Positions 54,255-61,275 of a stretch of DNA of 64,000 nt are shown in pieces. The notes under the pieces were generated by a model. That model had not been told where the DNA came from and ran no database searches. It worked only from the letters and a program-made list of their open reading frames with translations. The DNA comes from Epithemia pelagica (Eukaryota > Protista > Bacillariophyta): NCBI GenBank assembly GCA_946965045.2, contig OX337229.1, forward strand, positions 1,922,001 to 1,986,000, given 5' to 3'. Numbering within the stretch: the stretch's first letter is position 1; each line of letters begins with the position of its first letter. Position numbers and translations under genes: made by a program.

Positions 54255-55512
54255 TTATGAAGACTTGGATACTACCTCGTACGTTTCTTTCAACAAGGTC
54301 AAAAACGTTTGATTTTCTTCTGGAGTTCCGATTGTGACTCGGATGCACTCGGTACAGTGCATCTCTGTGCCACGATACCTTGTCACAACCGATGAGGTTG
54401 CATTGTCCGCCATGGCTTTGTACACTTGCAGTGCGTGCGATTTCAATTGAAACAACAAAAAGTTGGCATCCGACGGGTGAACCTGCGTCACAAAATCCAT
54501 TGCCGTCAAGGCTTGGACAACTTTGTTGCGTTCGTTCAAGGTTTGTTCAATATTGGATTTCAATACCGAGTCTGTATAATCCAGGGATTTGAGTGCCATT
54601 TGACTCGTCAATCCATTCACATTGTAGGGTGCCTTGACGTTATTCAGCAACTGAATTACGTCGGGACTGCCGAAACAAAATCCACACCGAATTGCTGCCA
54701 AGCCAAACGCCTTACTCATTGTTTGCAGAACCACAACGTTTGGATACTTAAGAATCAGTGACAGAGCAGTTCCATGCGTAGAATAGTCAACATAGGCCTC
54801 GTCAACGACTACAAGGACATCTTTCGCACTGGATACGACTGCTTCAATATCTGACAGAGGCAAGGCTTTTGAAGTTGGATTTCCAGGGGAACAAAGAAAC
54901 AACAGTTTGATGGACGGTGTGATGGCTTCAAGGATCTAAAGCAGGTGTATCGTGTTGAGTCAATTTATTACCATGCGAACACGGACAAACAGCGGTGCAG
55001 GGGACTCCCATTACGAAAAGATCTCACCAAGCAAGAGTCAAACTACTTACTTTTGGTACCTCCACGTCAAAGGTCGGAGTCAAGGGAACGGATACAATGG
55101 GAATGTCGTTCACCTTCGCACAAACCTTGTACATGCCATACGTCGGTGGAGTGATCAATATTTGATCCTCACCACCCGGACGACAAAATATTCGCATCAA
55201 CAAGTCAATTGCCTCATCGGATCCCACTCCGACAAACATGTGAGCGGGTGTGATACCGTCGACACCACGAAACTTGGCAAACTTTTCCTTCAAGGGAATT
55301 TGATAAGGGTCTGGGTACCGTTCCAATACAATATCATCTGCCGATCCTGAATCAGTTCGAGGAAGGGGAGGGCCGTACGCATTCTCGTTGGCATCCAATA
55401 AGATACCTTCACTGTAGTCGTCGCGCGCACATCGATACGGGTGCAATTCCAAAATATTCTTGCGGGCTAAACGAGCCGCAATGCCACTTCCATTGGACGA
55501 TGATGAACTCAT
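54255..55512 (-). CDS. hisC: Histidinol-phosphate aminotransferase (2 exons, about 380 aa)
   Basis: ILLDANENAYGP, ERYPDP, VGVGSDEAIDLL, PPTYGMY, CSPGNPT, VVVDEAYVDY and PLP-lysine QTMSKAFGLAAIRCG. Intron 55050-54936. Confidence 0.95.
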
Positions 55513-56176
55513 GACGTTTCTCTCCACTGGTGTGGTTGTGTTTCTTCAGCACAGGCGTACCAATGTGGGTTTGGTTGGTTTTGGTGTCCACTTCTTTTCG
55601 TCTTGTCTTCCTCCTCTGTCGTCGCAAAGAATATCCCTTGGTCGTTCGTACGTGTGTTTGTGGCCGATCGGCCGCAGTTGAGACGTGGATGTGGATGGGG
55701 GGGGACTAAAATTTTCACTGACCATCCATTGCGACAACCTAACGTTAAAGAAAAGATACTTTATGTGATGGGTATAAAAAAGGGGGAGGTTGGAGAATTG
55801 GAGGGAACCCACAAATCAACCAGAGGCCTCTCGCGTCAACCAACAAGGACAACAATAGACAACAAAAGGCCTGACAATGACAATGACAAAAACTATCATG
55901 TGGGAGTAGTATGTGTCTCGCACCTAATTGACCAAAGAATTGCTTCATCACCTTACATTAAATCCGTATCGAGGAGAGGTTTACTGGTGTTAGTGCCCGT
56001 GCCTCACATCGGCCCAACAACCAACTCTCCAACTACTCCTGTAGGAGACTTTTAACGCACAAAGCTACGGATATAGGGGTAGCTCTCTTAGCTTGATGCG
56101 TCTGATCTCATCATCATAAGGGATTCAGCATCAGAGGTCACTTTCTGCGATTTGGGACTTAGGACTGTCAACGACA

Positions 56177-58894
56177 ATGTCGGAAGATTCCACAAATAAT
56201 CCGTCCTACACGGACGACCAGTTGCATCACTGGAAAAGACTCTTGACGACGAATCCATACAGCGCTCTGACTACAAAGTTTGATAAGAAGTATTATCAAG
56301 TTCGGCAAGCGAACCTTCAGCACAATAAGAGGAAGAAGGCCCGAAGGAGCTACAAACCTGCGGCAGATGAGTCGAAACAGGACGACGACAACGATGAAAA
56401 AGATGCTGCCCAAGAGAAACTTCGCAACTGGGTACAATCGATCCAGAAGGAAGTTCCATGGTGTTTTTTCTACCGTCGCTGCCAAGTCACCAGCTGTAAA
56501 TGTTTTTATACCATGAACGTAGACGATGCGGTAGAGATCCTTTGGTTTATGGCGAAGCAGGAGAAGGGGATTCGGCAAACATTTTACAAACAATTCATGT
56601 CATCGTCTCTCAAGAAAAGAGAGATTGTTATCGACCTACCATGCATTCGAAATCCTATAAAGCTTTGTTTGCATTCATTTCGGAATCTGTTTTCGGTACG
56701 TTGTGTCCAATTCGCACGACTTCGGAAAGAACTCAAAGGCGGCAACACCGGTCCGAATGAGGTGAGACACAAGAACAACGATAACCGGTCTCGCTCCAGT
56801 ATGCTTGCTCGGTGCAAGAGTGATGTTGTTGAGTGGTTGCAGAAGTTTGCAGAAGAGCATGGCGAAATGAGGGCCACTCGATTACACCGAGAATCCAACA
56901 ATCTCGGAGCTCGGAACGTTGAAGTCAACTTGCTATACATACCTTCCAACTTCACCAAACGCCGTATCTATTGTGGTTATGTACACCACAATGGGTACCA
57001 GATGTTGACCGCAGACCGCAAGGGGTCCTATGGTTCGACATCAAACTACAAACCTCGTCGGGACGACGCAACGGATACAGAGTGGCCGGAGGGGATGGAT
57101 CCTAACCCCGTATGTGCCTTCTCGGTATTTTGTCGCATATGGAGGCTACACTGTCCTCTCATTGTCAGTGACCGTTCCATGTTTGATCCACAGCGAGGCC
57201 GGTCGACCGACGACGACAACGACGAGCCCATGAGCGATGAAGATGATGGTCTAGATTGTCTTGCTCCCATTGGGGTTGTGGAGGACGACGAACGGTTCGT
57301 TACCGTATCAAATCTTTATAAAGCAGGCCTATGTGCGAAAGACGAGCCTCAGCTTTTCTATCAACGGACTGCTTTCAAGGAATTGTCAGATTTCATTGAC
57401 AAGATTGTGGAAGGATGCCACATTGGGCTCATTGACGGTCTTCCTGGAACTGGCAAATCGTCCACATTGTGGTGGGGGCTTCGAAAGCTCACCAAGAGAC
57501 GCCTTCTGTGGATCAACCTTGATCGGCAGGGAAACGTCAATACTCTTATTGAAGTAAAAGACGCCTCGATCCAAACTCTTGCAGTGCCAATGAACGGATG
57601 GCGAGGTTTACTGGACAAGCTGAAGAAACTCTCGACTCAAAGTACAATCCTTGTGTTCGATGGTGTCAATCACAGTATATACAACGATGCTTTCGTTGCT
57701 TTGCGTGACTTTGTAATGAAAGATCTAAATGGGCGATGCGGCTTCATTACAATGTCCGGAAAAATTACGAGGGAACACAAGCACAATCTGGAGATTTATA
57801 TCAAGAAACAACGAGATGGAGTATTTGTGGCCCAGTTCTACCACACGCATCACTCGTGGACTCTGGACGACTACTTGGGTGCCTATGTAAATCCTGATCA
57901 AAGTGCTACTCCACTCTTTTTTGAAGTCCTCCCCGTGTTCGCGGAAGAGTGGAACATTGACATGTACGCCCAATTCATGAACACATCTGACGAGGGTTCC
58001 AAAAAGTTTGTCTTGGTGGAAGAAGCTGTCACGCAAAAGTTTGCGTTCGCTGGAGGATCTGCAAGATGGATGGCATCTGAGACCACGCATTCAATTTCCG
58101 CTATCATATCATCGTATCTTCAAGAATGTGTTCACTTGGATTCTTTGATGAATTTCAAGCTAGGAGAACAGTCACCACCTGCACAGACGCATCTGTATTT
58201 TGCGTCGGAAGATGATGCAGGGCTCACAGTCTATTCGTTGATTAGTCAGCACGCAACGTTGTTGGCTGTAGAGAACCTGAGTGCAGCTGGAGCAAAGAGC
58301 TTATATCGACATGCCACGCGGCTCAATGACCCTGCATTCTTGGGATGGGTGATCGAGGCATGTATCATACAGCGCTGTCTCAACGGGGCTTTGGTGTTTG
58401 AAGACACAGATGGCTCAGCTGTTCAGTTTACTCAACAAGCGAACGATCCGATTGAATTTGATCATGACAGTCTGGTTAACGGAGCTTCGGCGAGGTCATT
58501 GATTCCTTCCCCTGGTAAGACAAACGTGTGTAGGCCCAAGAAATGGAACCGAGGTGGATATGATTTCATTTTTTTATCGACAGGATGGAGGAAGAATTTG
58601 GCACTTCGCTTTTGTCAAGTTTCAAAATCATCGTTGGACTCGTTGAAGCTCGAGTACTTTGCGGAGGTGGTGAATTTCCTTTCCAGAGCCGGATACGTCA
58701 TTGAGTCTTTGGAAATTGCGTTCCTTGTGGCGATCCGAAAAATTTCAGACTATTGCATTTCGCCAAACAAGGTATTTGGTAGGGGTCGGTTGTCTCATGT
58801 TGACCTTCCCCGTTCACTGGGCAGATCCAAATGGGTCGAAGGGAGAGAAGAAGAGTTGATTTCTGTTTACGCAGTTGATTTGATCAACCCGTAG
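56177..58894 (+). CDS. Chimeric 905-aa protein: Sola-like transposase N-terminal region fused to a Crinkler (CRN)-type P-loop NTPase + PD-(D/E)xK nuclease module
   Basis: aa 1-335: C..CKC, LCLHSFRNLFSV, GEMRATRLHR, LYIPSNFTKRRIY, FSVFCRIWRLHCP. An acidic linker follows. Then IDGLPGTGKSS (Walker A), ILVFDG (Walker B), HSWTLDDY, KFAFAGGSARWM, GWVIE, PKKWNRGGYD and LRFCQVS..LKLEYF. The ORF is uninterrupted. Confidence 0.75.
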   Translation: MSEDSTNNPSYTDDQLHHWKRLLTTNPYSALTTKFDKKYYQVRQANLQHNKRKKARRSYKPAADESKQDDDNDEKDAAQEKLRNWVQSIQKEVPWCFFYRRCQVTSCKCFYTMNVDDAVEILWFMAKQEKGIRQTFYKQFMSSSLKKREIVIDLPCIRNPIKLCLHSFRNLFSVRCVQFARLRKELKGGNTGPNEVRHKNNDNRSRSSMLARCKSDVVEWLQKFAEEHGEMRATRLHRESNNLGARNVEVNLLYIPSNFTKRRIYCGYVHHNGYQMLTADRKGSYGSTSNYKPRRDDATDTEWPEGMDPNPVCAFSVFCRIWRLHCPLIVSDRSMFDPQRGRSTDDDNDEPMSDEDDGLDCLAPIGVVEDDERFVTVSNLYKAGLCAKDEPQLFYQRTAFKELSDFIDKIVEGCHIGLIDGLPGTGKSSTLWWGLRKLTKRRLLWINLDRQGNVNTLIEVKDASIQTLAVPMNGWRGLLDKLKKLSTQSTILVFDGVNHSIYNDAFVALRDFVMKDLNGRCGFITMSGKITREHKHNLEIYIKKQRDGVFVAQFYHTHHSWTLDDYLGAYVNPDQSATPLFFEVLPVFAEEWNIDMYAQFMNTSDEGSKKFVLVEEAVTQKFAFAGGSARWMASETTHSISAIISSYLQECVHLDSLMNFKLGEQSPPAQTHLYFASEDDAGLTVYSLISQHATLLAVENLSAAGAKSLYRHATRLNDPAFLGWVIEACIIQRCLNGALVFEDTDGSAVQFTQQANDPIEFDHDSLVNGASARSLIPSPGKTNVCRPKKWNRGGYDFIFLSTGWRKNLALRFCQVSKSSLDSLKLEYFAEVVNFLSRAGYVIESLEIAFLVAIRKISDYCISPNKVFGRGRLSHVDLPRSLGRSKWVEGREEELISVYAVDLINP

Positions 58895-59031
58895 TTGGAA
58901 TTTGGTGTCGCTGGGCACAGCCAGTACCATTCAAATCGCTACTAAAACCCAAACTATCGGTAGTCTTGTATCCACCCTGACCGACCACTGAGCGTGGCGA
59001 TAACCCGCAGAAGGAACCATGTCATTAACGA

Positions 59032-59105
59032 CATGCCCTTTTTCCCGCCTACAATGAGTACCTAGGTGCATGCCCTTTTTCCCGCCTACAATGAGTACCT
59101 AGGTG
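59032..59105. repeat. Exact 37-bp tandem duplication (CATGCCCTTTTTCCCGCCTACAATGAGTACCTAGGTG x2)
   Basis: Units at 59032-59068 and 59069-59105, about 140 bp downstream of the chimeric ORF. Confidence 0.92.
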
Positions 59106-59842
59106 AAAGAGAAAGTGTGCAACCCCTTACAAGTACTACGGCAAAAGGTCTAGAGATCTAGATGCTAGATGTACTTTCGGTCGAAACCTGTTAGGCGTTA
59201 GGCACAAGGCCACAGAGTATCACTAAAGAGGCCATTAATCGTCCAACAGGTCTACGGCGACCTGCCAGTAGCAGATGCCTTGATCTGTTGGTTTGTCGTC
59301 GATGATGTCAATTATGGCTCCTCCTCGGAATCCTCTACCGTAATTCTGATACCAAGTCCATTCCAGAGATCTTTGACACCATCATTTTGTGGCAGAACAT
59401 TTGGCAGCTGTCCGTAGTTCAGACAATTGACACCAATGACAGAATATTTTGTGGAAGCGAGTCGCTCAATTTGGCAGGTTGTACTAATTGTGGTATAGTG
59501 ATTCCTCACTTTGTCCGAAGAAGGTCATGCCACACACTTTTACTTTGAACGGAAATCATGTCGGTTGACGTCAGTCAGCAACCTCCAACTCCAACCTCCA
59601 TGAGCTCTCTCTCTCTTGAATTCACGCACACTCATTGGATCACCAGCAACAATCGCATCCTGCAAACTGCAAAAGCGAGCCGCCGGGAGCACGTCCAGAG
59701 TATTTTGGTAAATAATCTGTTGGCCCAAGTTCCTTGGGTTCGCGATTCACCTTCCGAAATACGAATTGGCAACCTTTTGCGTCTCTTAGGTCGACATCTA
59801 CTAGAGACAACGAGCTCGTGTATATATACAGACAACGGAACC

Positions 59843-61275
59843 ATGTGGAGCGGCAAGAAACGTTCCTTGGCAGCAAATGCGGCATCTCTCCTCCCCTTGG
59901 CTTGTTGCTTTTGCGTTTTAATATCTTCAGATGTTGTGTTGGCATGGACTTGTCCGGCCTACGATATGTCATTGAATCGACATTCCCATAGGATGTGTAA
60001 TGGCAAGGCACAGAGGGTGGAGTTTACACGAATGCAGCAAAGAAGAAGAGAACAATCCACAACGTTGTTGGCTGTACCAAAGAATGGCGTAGGCAAGAGT
60101 GCCTCGTCCTCCACAAGGACAGACATGAAGCGTGCAGCTGTGGCAGTGGTCGAATCTGATTCTTCCACACCGGAGCCTCCCTCGTCTGATTCTACAAAAG
60201 AGCCTCTGCACCAAAAGAGTGCCTCATCGGCTGTTGCCAGCATGGAGCTGCCATCCATAATAGAGGATCAACAAGAGTTGATCTCCAAGATCACCAATGG
60301 CTTGTTCTTGGCTGCGTGCTTTGGATTCGCAATCGGATCAATCCTCAACATCGACCAAGGAATGACACGAGGATGGACTCAAAGCGTATGTTATTGATTG
60401 TTTTGTTTTTATTTCAACTCTGCTTCCCACTTTTTGCTCATCACATTTGCATGTCAATGTTATTTTGCGTGTCTTCACAGGAGATTGCCCTGCGAATTCC
60501 CTTGGATGCTTGGAGTAGCTACGAAGCGGCATTGGAAGAGTCCCCAGTCGCCACGAAAACAATGATCAATGTCGTGATTTATTTGTTGGGGGATTGGTTA
60601 AGCCAGACCGTATTTGCAAAACAAAACATTTTGGATTTTGACTTGGGAAGGACACTTCGGAATGGCCTGATTGGCCTTTGCTTTGGTCCGCTGGTTCACG
60701 AATACTATCAATTTAGTGATACTATCTTGCCTGTGGACGGGGGCTTGGGCAATCGTGTCCTCAAAATTTTGATGGATCAATCGATCTACCTTGTGGTAAA
60801 ATGCTCATTGTACATTCTTGCTGTAAATACCCTTCAAGGACAAGATTTTGAAACATCAACACGGCTCGTCAAGGAAAAGATTGGAGGCATTGTGTTGACA
60901 GCTTGGAAATTTTGGCCGCTTGTCCACTGTATCACCTATTCAGTGATACCAGCCAGACATCGAATTCTGTGGGTCAATTGTGTGGATTTGGTCTGGAATG
61001 CCATTTTGGCTTCCATGTCACAACAATCGAAAGATGATGATGATGACGCTATCAACGTGGCCGTACCAGATGATGCACAGATTGCAACCTTAGGGACAGA
61101 TGATATTGTGACTGGGAACCCACTGTTGGTATCGAACGAGAGCACCGGCGGTACGGGAGCATTCGTACTGGAATCCAGTGCGATAGAGAGTGAATCTCCA
61201 ATTGATGATGAGGATGACGATGCAGAAAGTTTGGTAACAGAGTTGACATTGGTCGATGGGAAACCGAAACAGTGA
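59843..61275 (+). CDS. Mpv17/PMP22-family membrane protein with plastid-type presequence (2 exons, about 445 aa)
   Basis: YEAALEESPVATKTM, YLLGDWLSQ, FDLGRTLRNGLIG, KILMDQSIY and AWKFWPLVHCITYSVIPARHRILWVNCVDLVWNAILA. Intron 60386-60480 (GWTQS|EIALR). Probable ATG at 59843, followed by a hydrophobic stretch ending in VVLA-W. Confidence 0.88.

What the first reader, a model, noticed from the sequence alone, without database searches (positions are those of the whole stretch)
56177..58894. Intact transposase-to-toxin chimera: Sola-like DNA-transposon N-terminus driving a Crinkler-type NTPase-nuclease
Seen: one stop-free 905-aa ORF made of two unrelated halves joined by an acidic linker (STDDDNDEPMSDEDDG). 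The C-terminal half has the ordered motif string of oomycete CRN C-termini (GxPGTGKS, hhhDG, SWT..DY, FAGGSARWM, GW..E, KWNxGGYD, RFxQVS..hKhEYF). Established: CRN/CR effectors pair an NTPase with a restriction-endonuclease-fold nuclease, usually behind a ubiquitin-like LxLFLAK or helical header. No LxLFLAK and no signal peptide are present here. Instead the header carries motifs I recognise from Sola-type transposase N-termini (Cys cluster, RATR, LP..FTKR.IY, F.RIW...P). It stops just where such transposases continue into DxCxxC and the catalytic core. Inference: a transposase DNA-binding module has been grafted onto a nuclease effector, giving a possibly site-directed nuclear nuclease, a selfish/addiction element, or a new mobile element that uses an REase instead of DDD. 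An in-frame GTATGT..CACAG segment (57110-57193, 84 nt) spans the junction and could allow alternative splicing.
Basis: partly seen in the sequence, partly recalled or inferred. Interest (0 to 1): 0.82.

Follow-up and report, generated by a model that had tools for sequence, protein, structure and literature searches.

The report
Transposon-headed Crinkler protein in a diatom
One intact gene, likely of a diatom, joins the front part of a jumping-gene enzyme to a Crinkler-type ATPase and nuclease whose predicted cutting site has changed, so it likely works as a tamed DNA-binding protein rather than as an active toxin or a mobile element.

Summary
The chimera is real. The 905-aa ORF is stop-free. 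Residues 10-330 are 48% identical to the N-terminus of an intact DUF7869 transposase, a family whose bacterial members have terminal inverted repeats and 4-bp target duplications, as Sola elements do. Residues 371-905 are a Crinkler/RHS (CR)-type NTPase-nuclease that stands alone in other diatoms. Contigs of three runs and a second allele bridge the junction. One run skips neighbouring introns, so it is probably RNA; it keeps the proposed 84-nt intron, which encodes conserved transposase residues. The fusion was seen only in this organism, with no inverted repeats or target duplication, so a new mobile element is unlikely. Against an active toxin: the nuclease part has changed at 14 of 64 otherwise invariant columns, including a family-wide histidine, versus 3 of 65 in the NTPase. 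Best reading (0.4): transposase capture giving a nuclear DNA-tethered ATPase with a weakened nuclease. Selection on the header is not shown (4 SNPs). Two Epithemia genes carry the same truncated header with other tails. New variant of known kinds; interest 0.45.

The parts
56177..58894 (+). Single-exon ORF, 905 aa, chimera of a Sola1-like transposase N-terminus and a CR NTPase-nuclease
   Evidence: second allele P0002; contigs without indels or joints
56204..57166 (+). Transposase N-terminal region (aa 10-330), without DxCxxC and without the catalytic core
   Evidence: 48% identical to P0169 aa 14-336, E 1e-98; 146 phmmer hits; model pLDDT 91
56327..56347 (+). Basic stretch aa 51-57, possible nuclear localisation signal
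   Evidence: sequence; function inferred, no predictor run
56462..56668 (+). Conserved cysteines 96, 107, 109, 164; possible metal site
   Evidence: invariant or nearly invariant in alignment A2, kept in both alleles; metal binding inferred
56774..57166 (+). Region with weak winged-helix-like fold matches (aa about 200-330)
   Evidence: VIA-align Z 4-5.5, below the tool's trust level of 8; no Foldseek hit
57110..57193 (+). Proposed 84-nt intron: coding, retained
57167..57286 (+). Acidic linker (aa 331-370), perhaps partly the transposase's own acidic spacer
   Evidence: score 51 against the P0169 spacer, reached by 9 of 2000 shuffles, but another transposase's spacer scores 47: weak
57287..58276 (+). 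CR-type P-loop NTPase (aa 371 to about 700), Walker A 421-428 and Walker B 493-496 intact
   Evidence: AAA+/STAND-like fold matches; allele pN/pS about 0.09
58277..58891 (+). CR nuclease-type domain (aa about 701-905); E727, D796 and Q814 kept; family residues changed at 729, 792, 816 and 821 (the conserved histidine)
   Evidence: restriction-endonuclease fold itself not tested by a fold search

Best explanation
This is a fusion of a Sola1-like transposase N-terminus with a Crinkler/RHS-type NTPase-nuclease, and it likely acts as a tamed nuclear protein in which the captured header would tether an intact ATPase to DNA, probably at Sola-type ends, while the nuclease is predicted to be weak or inactive. 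Shown: the two ancestries, the breakpoint before DxCxxC, an open frame in two alleles, purifying selection on the C-half between alleles, and loss of family-invariant nuclease residues. Inferred: transcription as one unspliced message (one RNA-like run); origin by a transposon or transposon-derived gene landing next to a headerless CR gene, with deletion of the transposase core; DNA binding by the header; ATP-driven assembly on DNA; a role as competitor or repressor of Sola-type elements; and that disarming the nuclease is what made a DNA-tethered CR protein tolerable.
For: Header: keeps 32 of 39 columns conserved in 20 core-bearing transposases (their range 26/35 to 38/39 and 31/31); 4 of the 7 changes lie in one segment, aa 236-242 (F236, V237, T241, G242), which is also deleted or garbled in the two Epithemia truncated relatives. 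Its branch is as long as that of intact P0169 (0.4 each; quick tree). The closest intact transposase found is only 48% identical. The same header, cut at the same place, is fused to a RING finger (P0015) or a low-complexity tail (P0016/P0161) in Epithemia, in one clade with SH-aLRT 100. NTPase: 19 synonymous to 6 nonsynonymous allele differences in aa 366-641, pN/pS 0.09, p 2e-8. Nuclease: 14 of 64 invariant columns changed versus 3 of 65 in the NTPase, Fisher p 0.004, with no such excess in 6 of 6 relatives; identity to five outgroups is 9-13 points below that of P0003 in the nuclease part but 0-5 below in the NTPase. The histidine is kept in 16 of 17 parsed motifs of distant relatives matched at 23-42% identity. 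Precedent: capture of transposase DNA-binding domains (10.1101/2020.05.07.082677, abstract).
Against: Allele differences in the header are 1 synonymous to 3 nonsynonymous, as neutrality predicts (p 0.61, only 4 SNPs). A recent insertion from an unsampled active parent would also give a conserved header and an equal branch length. No orthologous fusion was found in any other organism. DNA binding rests on architecture and on fold matches under Z 6. E727, D796 and Q814 are kept, and allele differences in the nuclease part are still mostly silent (at most 17 nucleotide differences against 4 amino-acid differences in aa 718-871, a rough count from two sources), so the nuclease may be altered rather than dead.
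Confidence: 0.4

Rival explanations
1. Passenger header: a truncated Sola1-like element inserted upstream of a stand-alone CR gene and supplied promoter and start codon. The header stays open only because the downstream NTPase must be translated, and has no function of its own.
For: Neutral-looking SNP ratio in the header, 1:3; fusion seen in one organism only; 10 of the 11 C-half relatives are 509-642 aa with short or unrelated N-termini, one from a 2138-nt diatom transcript record.
Against: Changes in conserved header columns cluster in one segment instead of being spread; all four cysteines are kept; no close parent was found; the same header recurs as annotated genes in Epithemia.
Confidence: 0.3
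2. Active site-directed nuclease: the header guides a working CR nuclease to Sola ends or other sites, as an anti-transposon weapon or a Medea-like selfish element.
For: Walker motifs and E727, D796, Q814 kept; the nuclease part is still constrained between alleles; C-half alleles are unusually divergent (pS 0.10 versus 0.005 in the header), as conflict genes can be. CR NTPase+REase occurs in Medea1 (PMC11342252, section 19), and DNA-binding Myb-like headers are proposed to aim plant CR proteins at invasive DNA (PMC5289972, section 11).
Against: Selective erosion of the nuclease motifs, including the family histidine, in both alleles; both alleles carry the gene, so no carrier/non-carrier polymorphism is seen; no antidote-like partner is evident among the neighbouring ORFs (by inspection).
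Confidence: 0.17
3. New mobile element that uses the restriction-type nuclease instead of the DDD core.
For: The NTPase's best fold matches include TnsC (Z 10.4, rmsd 5.0, 224 aligned) and MuB (Z 9.9), tied with many other AAA+ proteins; NTPase+REase pairs are linked with transposons in prokaryotes (PMC5289972, section 11).
Against: Candidate inverted repeats with a 4-bp duplication: 2 at 10 bp with up to 2 mismatches versus 0-3 in 20 shuffles, 0 at 20 bp; no second fused copy among proteins; contigs show two haplotypes and no joint that skips the gene; eroded nuclease motifs.
Confidence: 0.04
4. Artefact: assembly chimera, or two genes separated by splicing or internal initiation.
For: All four runs come from one study and one may be the source of the window; only contigs, no raw or long reads; contigs drop rare isoforms; ATGs exist in the linker.
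Against: Three runs from different samples bridge the junction with no gap; a separate assembly gives the same fusion with 18 aa differences; the proposed intron is conserved coding sequence.
Confidence: 0.07

Closest known systems
CR (Crinkler-RHS) proteins with NTPase + REase C-termini (Zhang et al. 2016, not held; as summarised in PMC5289972 section 11 and PMC11342252 section 19)
   Same: [quoted passage not shown]
   Different: The header is a transposase N-terminus, not a ubiquitin-like, helical or Myb header; no LxLFLAK; nuclease motifs eroded; close diatom relatives have no header at all.
Sola1-type DNA transposons (DUF7869, PF25273 transposases)
   Same: aa 10-330 are homologous to their N-terminal region.
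   Different: No DxCxxC, no catalytic core, no inverted repeats or target duplication; cannot transpose on its own.
Host-transposase fusion genes such as KRABINER (10.1101/2020.05.07.082677, abstract)
   Same: A transposase N-terminal, presumably DNA-binding, region joined to an unrelated domain.
   Different: Here the join is a continuous frame without a splice, the partner is a conflict-type ATPase-nuclease and the host is a likely diatom; selection and binding are not shown.
Medea1 of Tribolium and AACRNL (PMC11342252 section 19; PMC12957317 abstract)
   Same: CR-type proteins in free-living eukaryotes, linked to transposons or selfish behaviour.
   Different: Those keep or are described with active toxin domains and sit beside, not fused to, transposon parts; no spread is seen here.

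Membership tests
Sola1-type DNA transposon | Transposase N-terminal region homologous to the family | tested here: met
   48% to P0169; a profile of the region hits 50 of 54 prokaryote-collection transposase loci and 0 of 18 CR loci, including L024 at E 6.5e-11
Sola1-type DNA transposon | DDD catalytic core (DUF7869) | tested here: not met
   No DUF7869 in P0001; no core remnant in the window; present in 18 of 30 N-half hits scanned
Sola1-type DNA transposon | Terminal inverted repeats with a 4-bp target duplication around the gene | tested here: not met
   nothing above chance between 55513-56176 and 58895-59700
Sola1-type DNA transposon | The donor family is Sola (4-bp, AWWT-like target duplication) | tested here: inconclusive
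   5 of 5 copies in one Desulfobacterium chromosome have about 34-bp inverted repeats and 4-bp duplications, AWWT in 3 of 5, matching Sola descriptions (PMC10741241, PMC3845634 passages). These are distant relatives (27% in the core) and no named Sola1 reference was compared; the name is inferred.
Sola1-type DNA transposon | Multiple dispersed copies in the genome | not testable with these tools
   No genome held; contigs show two haplotypes only, but depth is no copy number
CR (Crinkler-RHS) NTPase+REase protein | P-loop NTPase with Walker A and B | tested here: met
CR (Crinkler-RHS) NTPase+REase protein | Sequence kinship with Crinkler/RHS clusters | tested here: met
   Tested on relative P0004 (69% identical to the C-half): Atlas scores 0.97 Crinkler family, 0.93 RHS; not on the window protein itself
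CR (Crinkler-RHS) NTPase+REase protein | Restriction-endonuclease fold with complete active-site motifs | tested here: inconclusive
   Model has a mixed alpha/beta C-terminal domain but fold searches were filled by the NTPase; acidic residues kept, histidine and three other family residues changed
Oomycete CRN effector (strict sense) | LxLFLAK ubiquitin-like header | tested here: not met
   No LFLAK, no Crinkler Pfam hit
Oomycete CRN effector (strict sense) | Secretion or delivery into a host cell | not testable with these tools
   No predictor available; N-terminus is polar by inspection
Domesticated host-transposase fusion gene | Fused transcript | tested here: inconclusive
   X1 is not on record as RNA; it skips two GT-AG-type introns nearby and its 1945-nt contig 56157-58101 crosses the junction; contigs cannot prove a single transcript
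Domesticated host-transposase fusion gene | Purifying selection on the transposase part after fusion | tested here: inconclusive
   4 SNPs, 1 synonymous; conserved columns mostly kept
Domesticated host-transposase fusion gene | Orthologues in related species | tested here: inconclusive
   None among proteins searched; no eukaryote genome collection is available

The most novel reading that the evidence does not exclude
A diatom has built an anti-transposon weapon from the transposon's own parts: the Sola1 end-recognition module aims an ATP-gated Crinkler nuclease with a remodelled active site at Sola ends, and the same Sola header is a reusable targeting module that diatoms have repeatedly captured (nuclease here, RING finger in Epithemia).
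Probability: 0.13. Interest if true: 0.8.

Novelty: new variant of a known kind. Interest (0 to 1): 0.45.

Why it matters
It shows how CR proteins gain new headers, here from a DNA transposon, and gives a candidate case of transposase capture in diatoms. It also points to the uncharacterised N-terminal region of Sola transposases (no Pfam family; no confident fold match) as a detachable module, cut at the same place in two diatom lineages. If the header binds Sola ends, this would give a first handle on how Sola transposases recognise DNA. The weight is limited by the single-organism range and the untested function.

Tried and rejected
No genome was held, so copy number and empty sites could not be searched. 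No RNA holder listed. Pfam on the full protein gave only sub-threshold AAA hits; PDB sequence searches gave nothing significant (a Z-alpha hit at E 0.59 is not evidence). The Atlas held none of P0001, P0002, P0169, P0021, P0015, so the header was not tested there. Foldseek found no match for the header. No restriction-nuclease row appeared in the fold searches of the C-half, which the NTPase filled. A search for longer C-half relatives (1125-3210 aa) found none among 7291 candidates, weak evidence. No transposase relative in viral contigs; alignment A3 was too loose for a locus scan. X1 has no cover at 55674-56007 and no other contig lies on the header at 80% likeness, but holes in contigs prove nothing. 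Contig depth was not used to rank expression. The 84-nt intron and a 30-nt in-frame GT..AG at 57164-57193 were rejected as major splice forms. Literature searches for Crinkler/REase/NTPase/transposase/diatom, Sola+transposase+diatom, DUF7869, Sola+domesticated, diatom+Crinkler and transposase fusion+diatom listed no paper whose title or abstract start describes this fusion. Zhang et al. 2016 and the original Sola paper were not held; Zhang's supplements may list such a header. The careful tree did not finish; the quick tree was used. No complex prediction was run.

Full report
Observation. It sits between a divergent gene ending at 55512 and a gene starting near 59558; I read these as histidinol-phosphate aminotransferase and an Mpv17/PMP22-like protein from recall, no call tested this. 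The nearest named relatives of both halves are diatoms (Entomoneis, Striatella, Nitzschia, Epithemia), so the host is likely a diatom. No whole genome was held.

The junction is real. A protein of a separate assembly, P0002, is the same fusion with 18 differences in 905 aa. Four runs of one study, at most three samples, hold the locus. Contigs of X2 (56168-57304), X4 (55860-58101) and X1 (56157-58101) cross the junction; no indel and no joint is listed in 55900-59100. X1 is not on record as RNA, but its contigs skip 95 nt with GT..AG ends near 60385-60481 and 115 nt with CT..AC ends near 54935-55051, which the other three runs do not. I therefore read it as RNA. Its contig begins 20 nt before the ATG and keeps the proposed 84-nt intron. 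That segment encodes the VCxxSxFxxIW motif conserved in the transposases. Contigs drop rare forms and do not prove one transcript, so a minor spliced form is not excluded.

The N-half. phmmer with aa 1-335 found 146 relatives; 18 of 30 that I scanned, chosen mostly for length, carry DUF7869 further on. The closest intact transposase, P0169 (777 aa), is 48% identical over aa 10-330, and the likeness ends just before its DxCxxC motif; 41 of 55 relatives with a parsed motif and a long enough tail continue into DxCxxC. To test the Sola label I fetched 54 related loci from prokaryote genome records. Five of five copies in one chromosome are 2063 bp with about 34-bp inverted repeats and 4-bp duplications (TTAT, AGAT, ATAT three times). 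Sola elements have 4-bp duplications (PMC10741241, passage) and Sola1 prefers AWWT (PMC3845634, passage). A profile of the header region hits 50 of these 54 loci. No named Sola1 sequence was compared, so the name is inferred. The header folds with mean pLDDT 91. It has no Foldseek match; aa 200-335 give many winged-helix rows at Z 4-5.5, a lead only.

The header recurs. Epithemia clementina has annotated genes with the same region ending at the same place, followed by a RING finger (P0015) or a low-complexity tail (P0016/P0161), and a 200-aa piece (P0063). In a quick tree of 61 of the 71 aligned rows (those covering 60% of aa 75-330) the window header, P0169, P0015 and P0161 form one clade (SH-aLRT 100) whose inner order is open. 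The window header keeps 32 of 39 conserved columns; four of the seven changes fall in aa 236-242, a segment that P0015 lacks and P0161 has garbled. These gene models may hide introns; I could not see their DNA.

The C-half. Eleven relatives cover only the C-half: ten are 509-642 aa with short or unrelated N-termini, one (P0010) has two such modules in tandem. P0004, 69% identical, falls among Crinkler and RHS clusters at 0.93-0.98. The model (pLDDT 83) matches Apaf-1, NLR and Orc/Cdc6 ATPases by Foldseek and TnsC, MuB and many others, tied, by VIA-align; the nuclease fold was not reached by either. None of 148 header relatives has CR motifs and none of 18 distant CR loci has the header. These searches are bounded by length windows and candidate limits, so absence elsewhere is moderate evidence.

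Selection. Of 63 variant places, 40 were shown and 36 lie in the ORF: header 1 synonymous and 3 nonsynonymous, linker 1 and 1, C-half 22 and 8. For aa 366-641 pN/pS is 0.09 (p 2e-8); for the header the four changes fit neutrality (p 0.61) and have no power. The nuclease part departs from the family: 14 of 64 invariant columns changed against 3 of 65 in the NTPase (Fisher p 0.004), with no such excess in six relatives. The changed places include 729, 792, 816 and 821; both alleles share them. Position 821 is histidine in 8 of 8 close relatives and in 16 of 17 motifs parsed from 19 occurrences in distant loci. That this histidine is catalytic is inferred from its conservation. Against a dead domain: E727, D796 and Q814 are kept and allele differences there remain mostly silent (rough count).

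Mobility. No inverted repeat with a target duplication above chance flanks the gene. In X4 the two haplotype contigs at 58072-58192 and 58651-58789 have depths summing to 126 and 127, against 120-128 on the flanks; this fits two alleles of one locus, though the tool warns that depth is no copy number.

Mechanism. Most likely (0.4) a captured transposase header tethers a working CR ATPase to DNA in the nucleus while the nuclease has been weakened; binding, target and role are inferred. A passenger header (0.3), an active guided nuclease (0.17), an artefact or split product (0.07) and a new mobile element (0.04) are the rivals.

Known context. CR proteins occur in free-living eukaryotes, take varied headers, and plant members with Myb-like headers are proposed to target invasive DNA (PMC5289972, section 11 read). 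CR NTPase+REase occurs in Medea1 (PMC11342252, passages and section 19). Transposase capture is frequent in tetrapods (10.1101/2020.05.07.082677, abstract). AACRNL is a CR-like genomic parasite in free-living animals (PMC12957317, abstract). Also seen as passages only: 10.1101/2021.09.26.461848 and PMC12477816. The six searches listed under Tried and rejected showed no paper on a Sola-headed CR protein, but the key survey (Zhang et al. 2016) and its supplements were not available, so novelty of the header is not certain. Verdict: a real new domain combination of known parts, in one organism, function untested.

Noticed in passing
window 57244-58789: C-half alleles differ at about 10% of synonymous sites (19 of 184 in aa 366-641) against 1 of 210 in the header and about 0.4-0.5% of letters on the flanks; balancing selection or old gene conversion would fit.
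   Followed up: partly
window 55757-56167: The region upstream of the gene has a divergent second haplotype with many small indels (tables 4, 7, 8); P0002 has a 27-aa N-terminal extension where the window allele has an in-frame stop.
   Followed up: no
window 57164-57193: A 30-nt in-frame GT..AG segment begins exactly where transposase homology ends; it is retained in X1.
   Followed up: partly
window 59032-59105: Perfect 37-nt tandem duplication; an X1 contig has one copy only.
   Followed up: no
P0015, P0161, P0063 (Epithemia clementina): Truncated Sola-type N-termini as annotated genes, one fused to a RING finger: possible independent domestications.
   Followed up: partly
L024 3155-5226 (also L025, L027, L028, L052; L034, L042): Near-identical 2063-bp Sola-like elements with inverted repeats and 4-bp duplications, five copies in one Desulfobacterium chromosome.
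   Followed up: partly
L019 200-2212: A 670-aa Sola-like transposase ending in a homeodomain-like stretch (recalled motif), with near-identical hits in records of three unrelated bacterial groups (L019-L021).
   Followed up: no
L048-L050, L053, L054, L056, L059, L061, L064, L069: Repeat-rich, eukaryote-like elements with split ORFs in a record labelled Stappiaceae; possibly contamination.
   Followed up: no
P0010: 1097-aa protein with two CR-type NTPase-nuclease modules in tandem.
   Followed up: no
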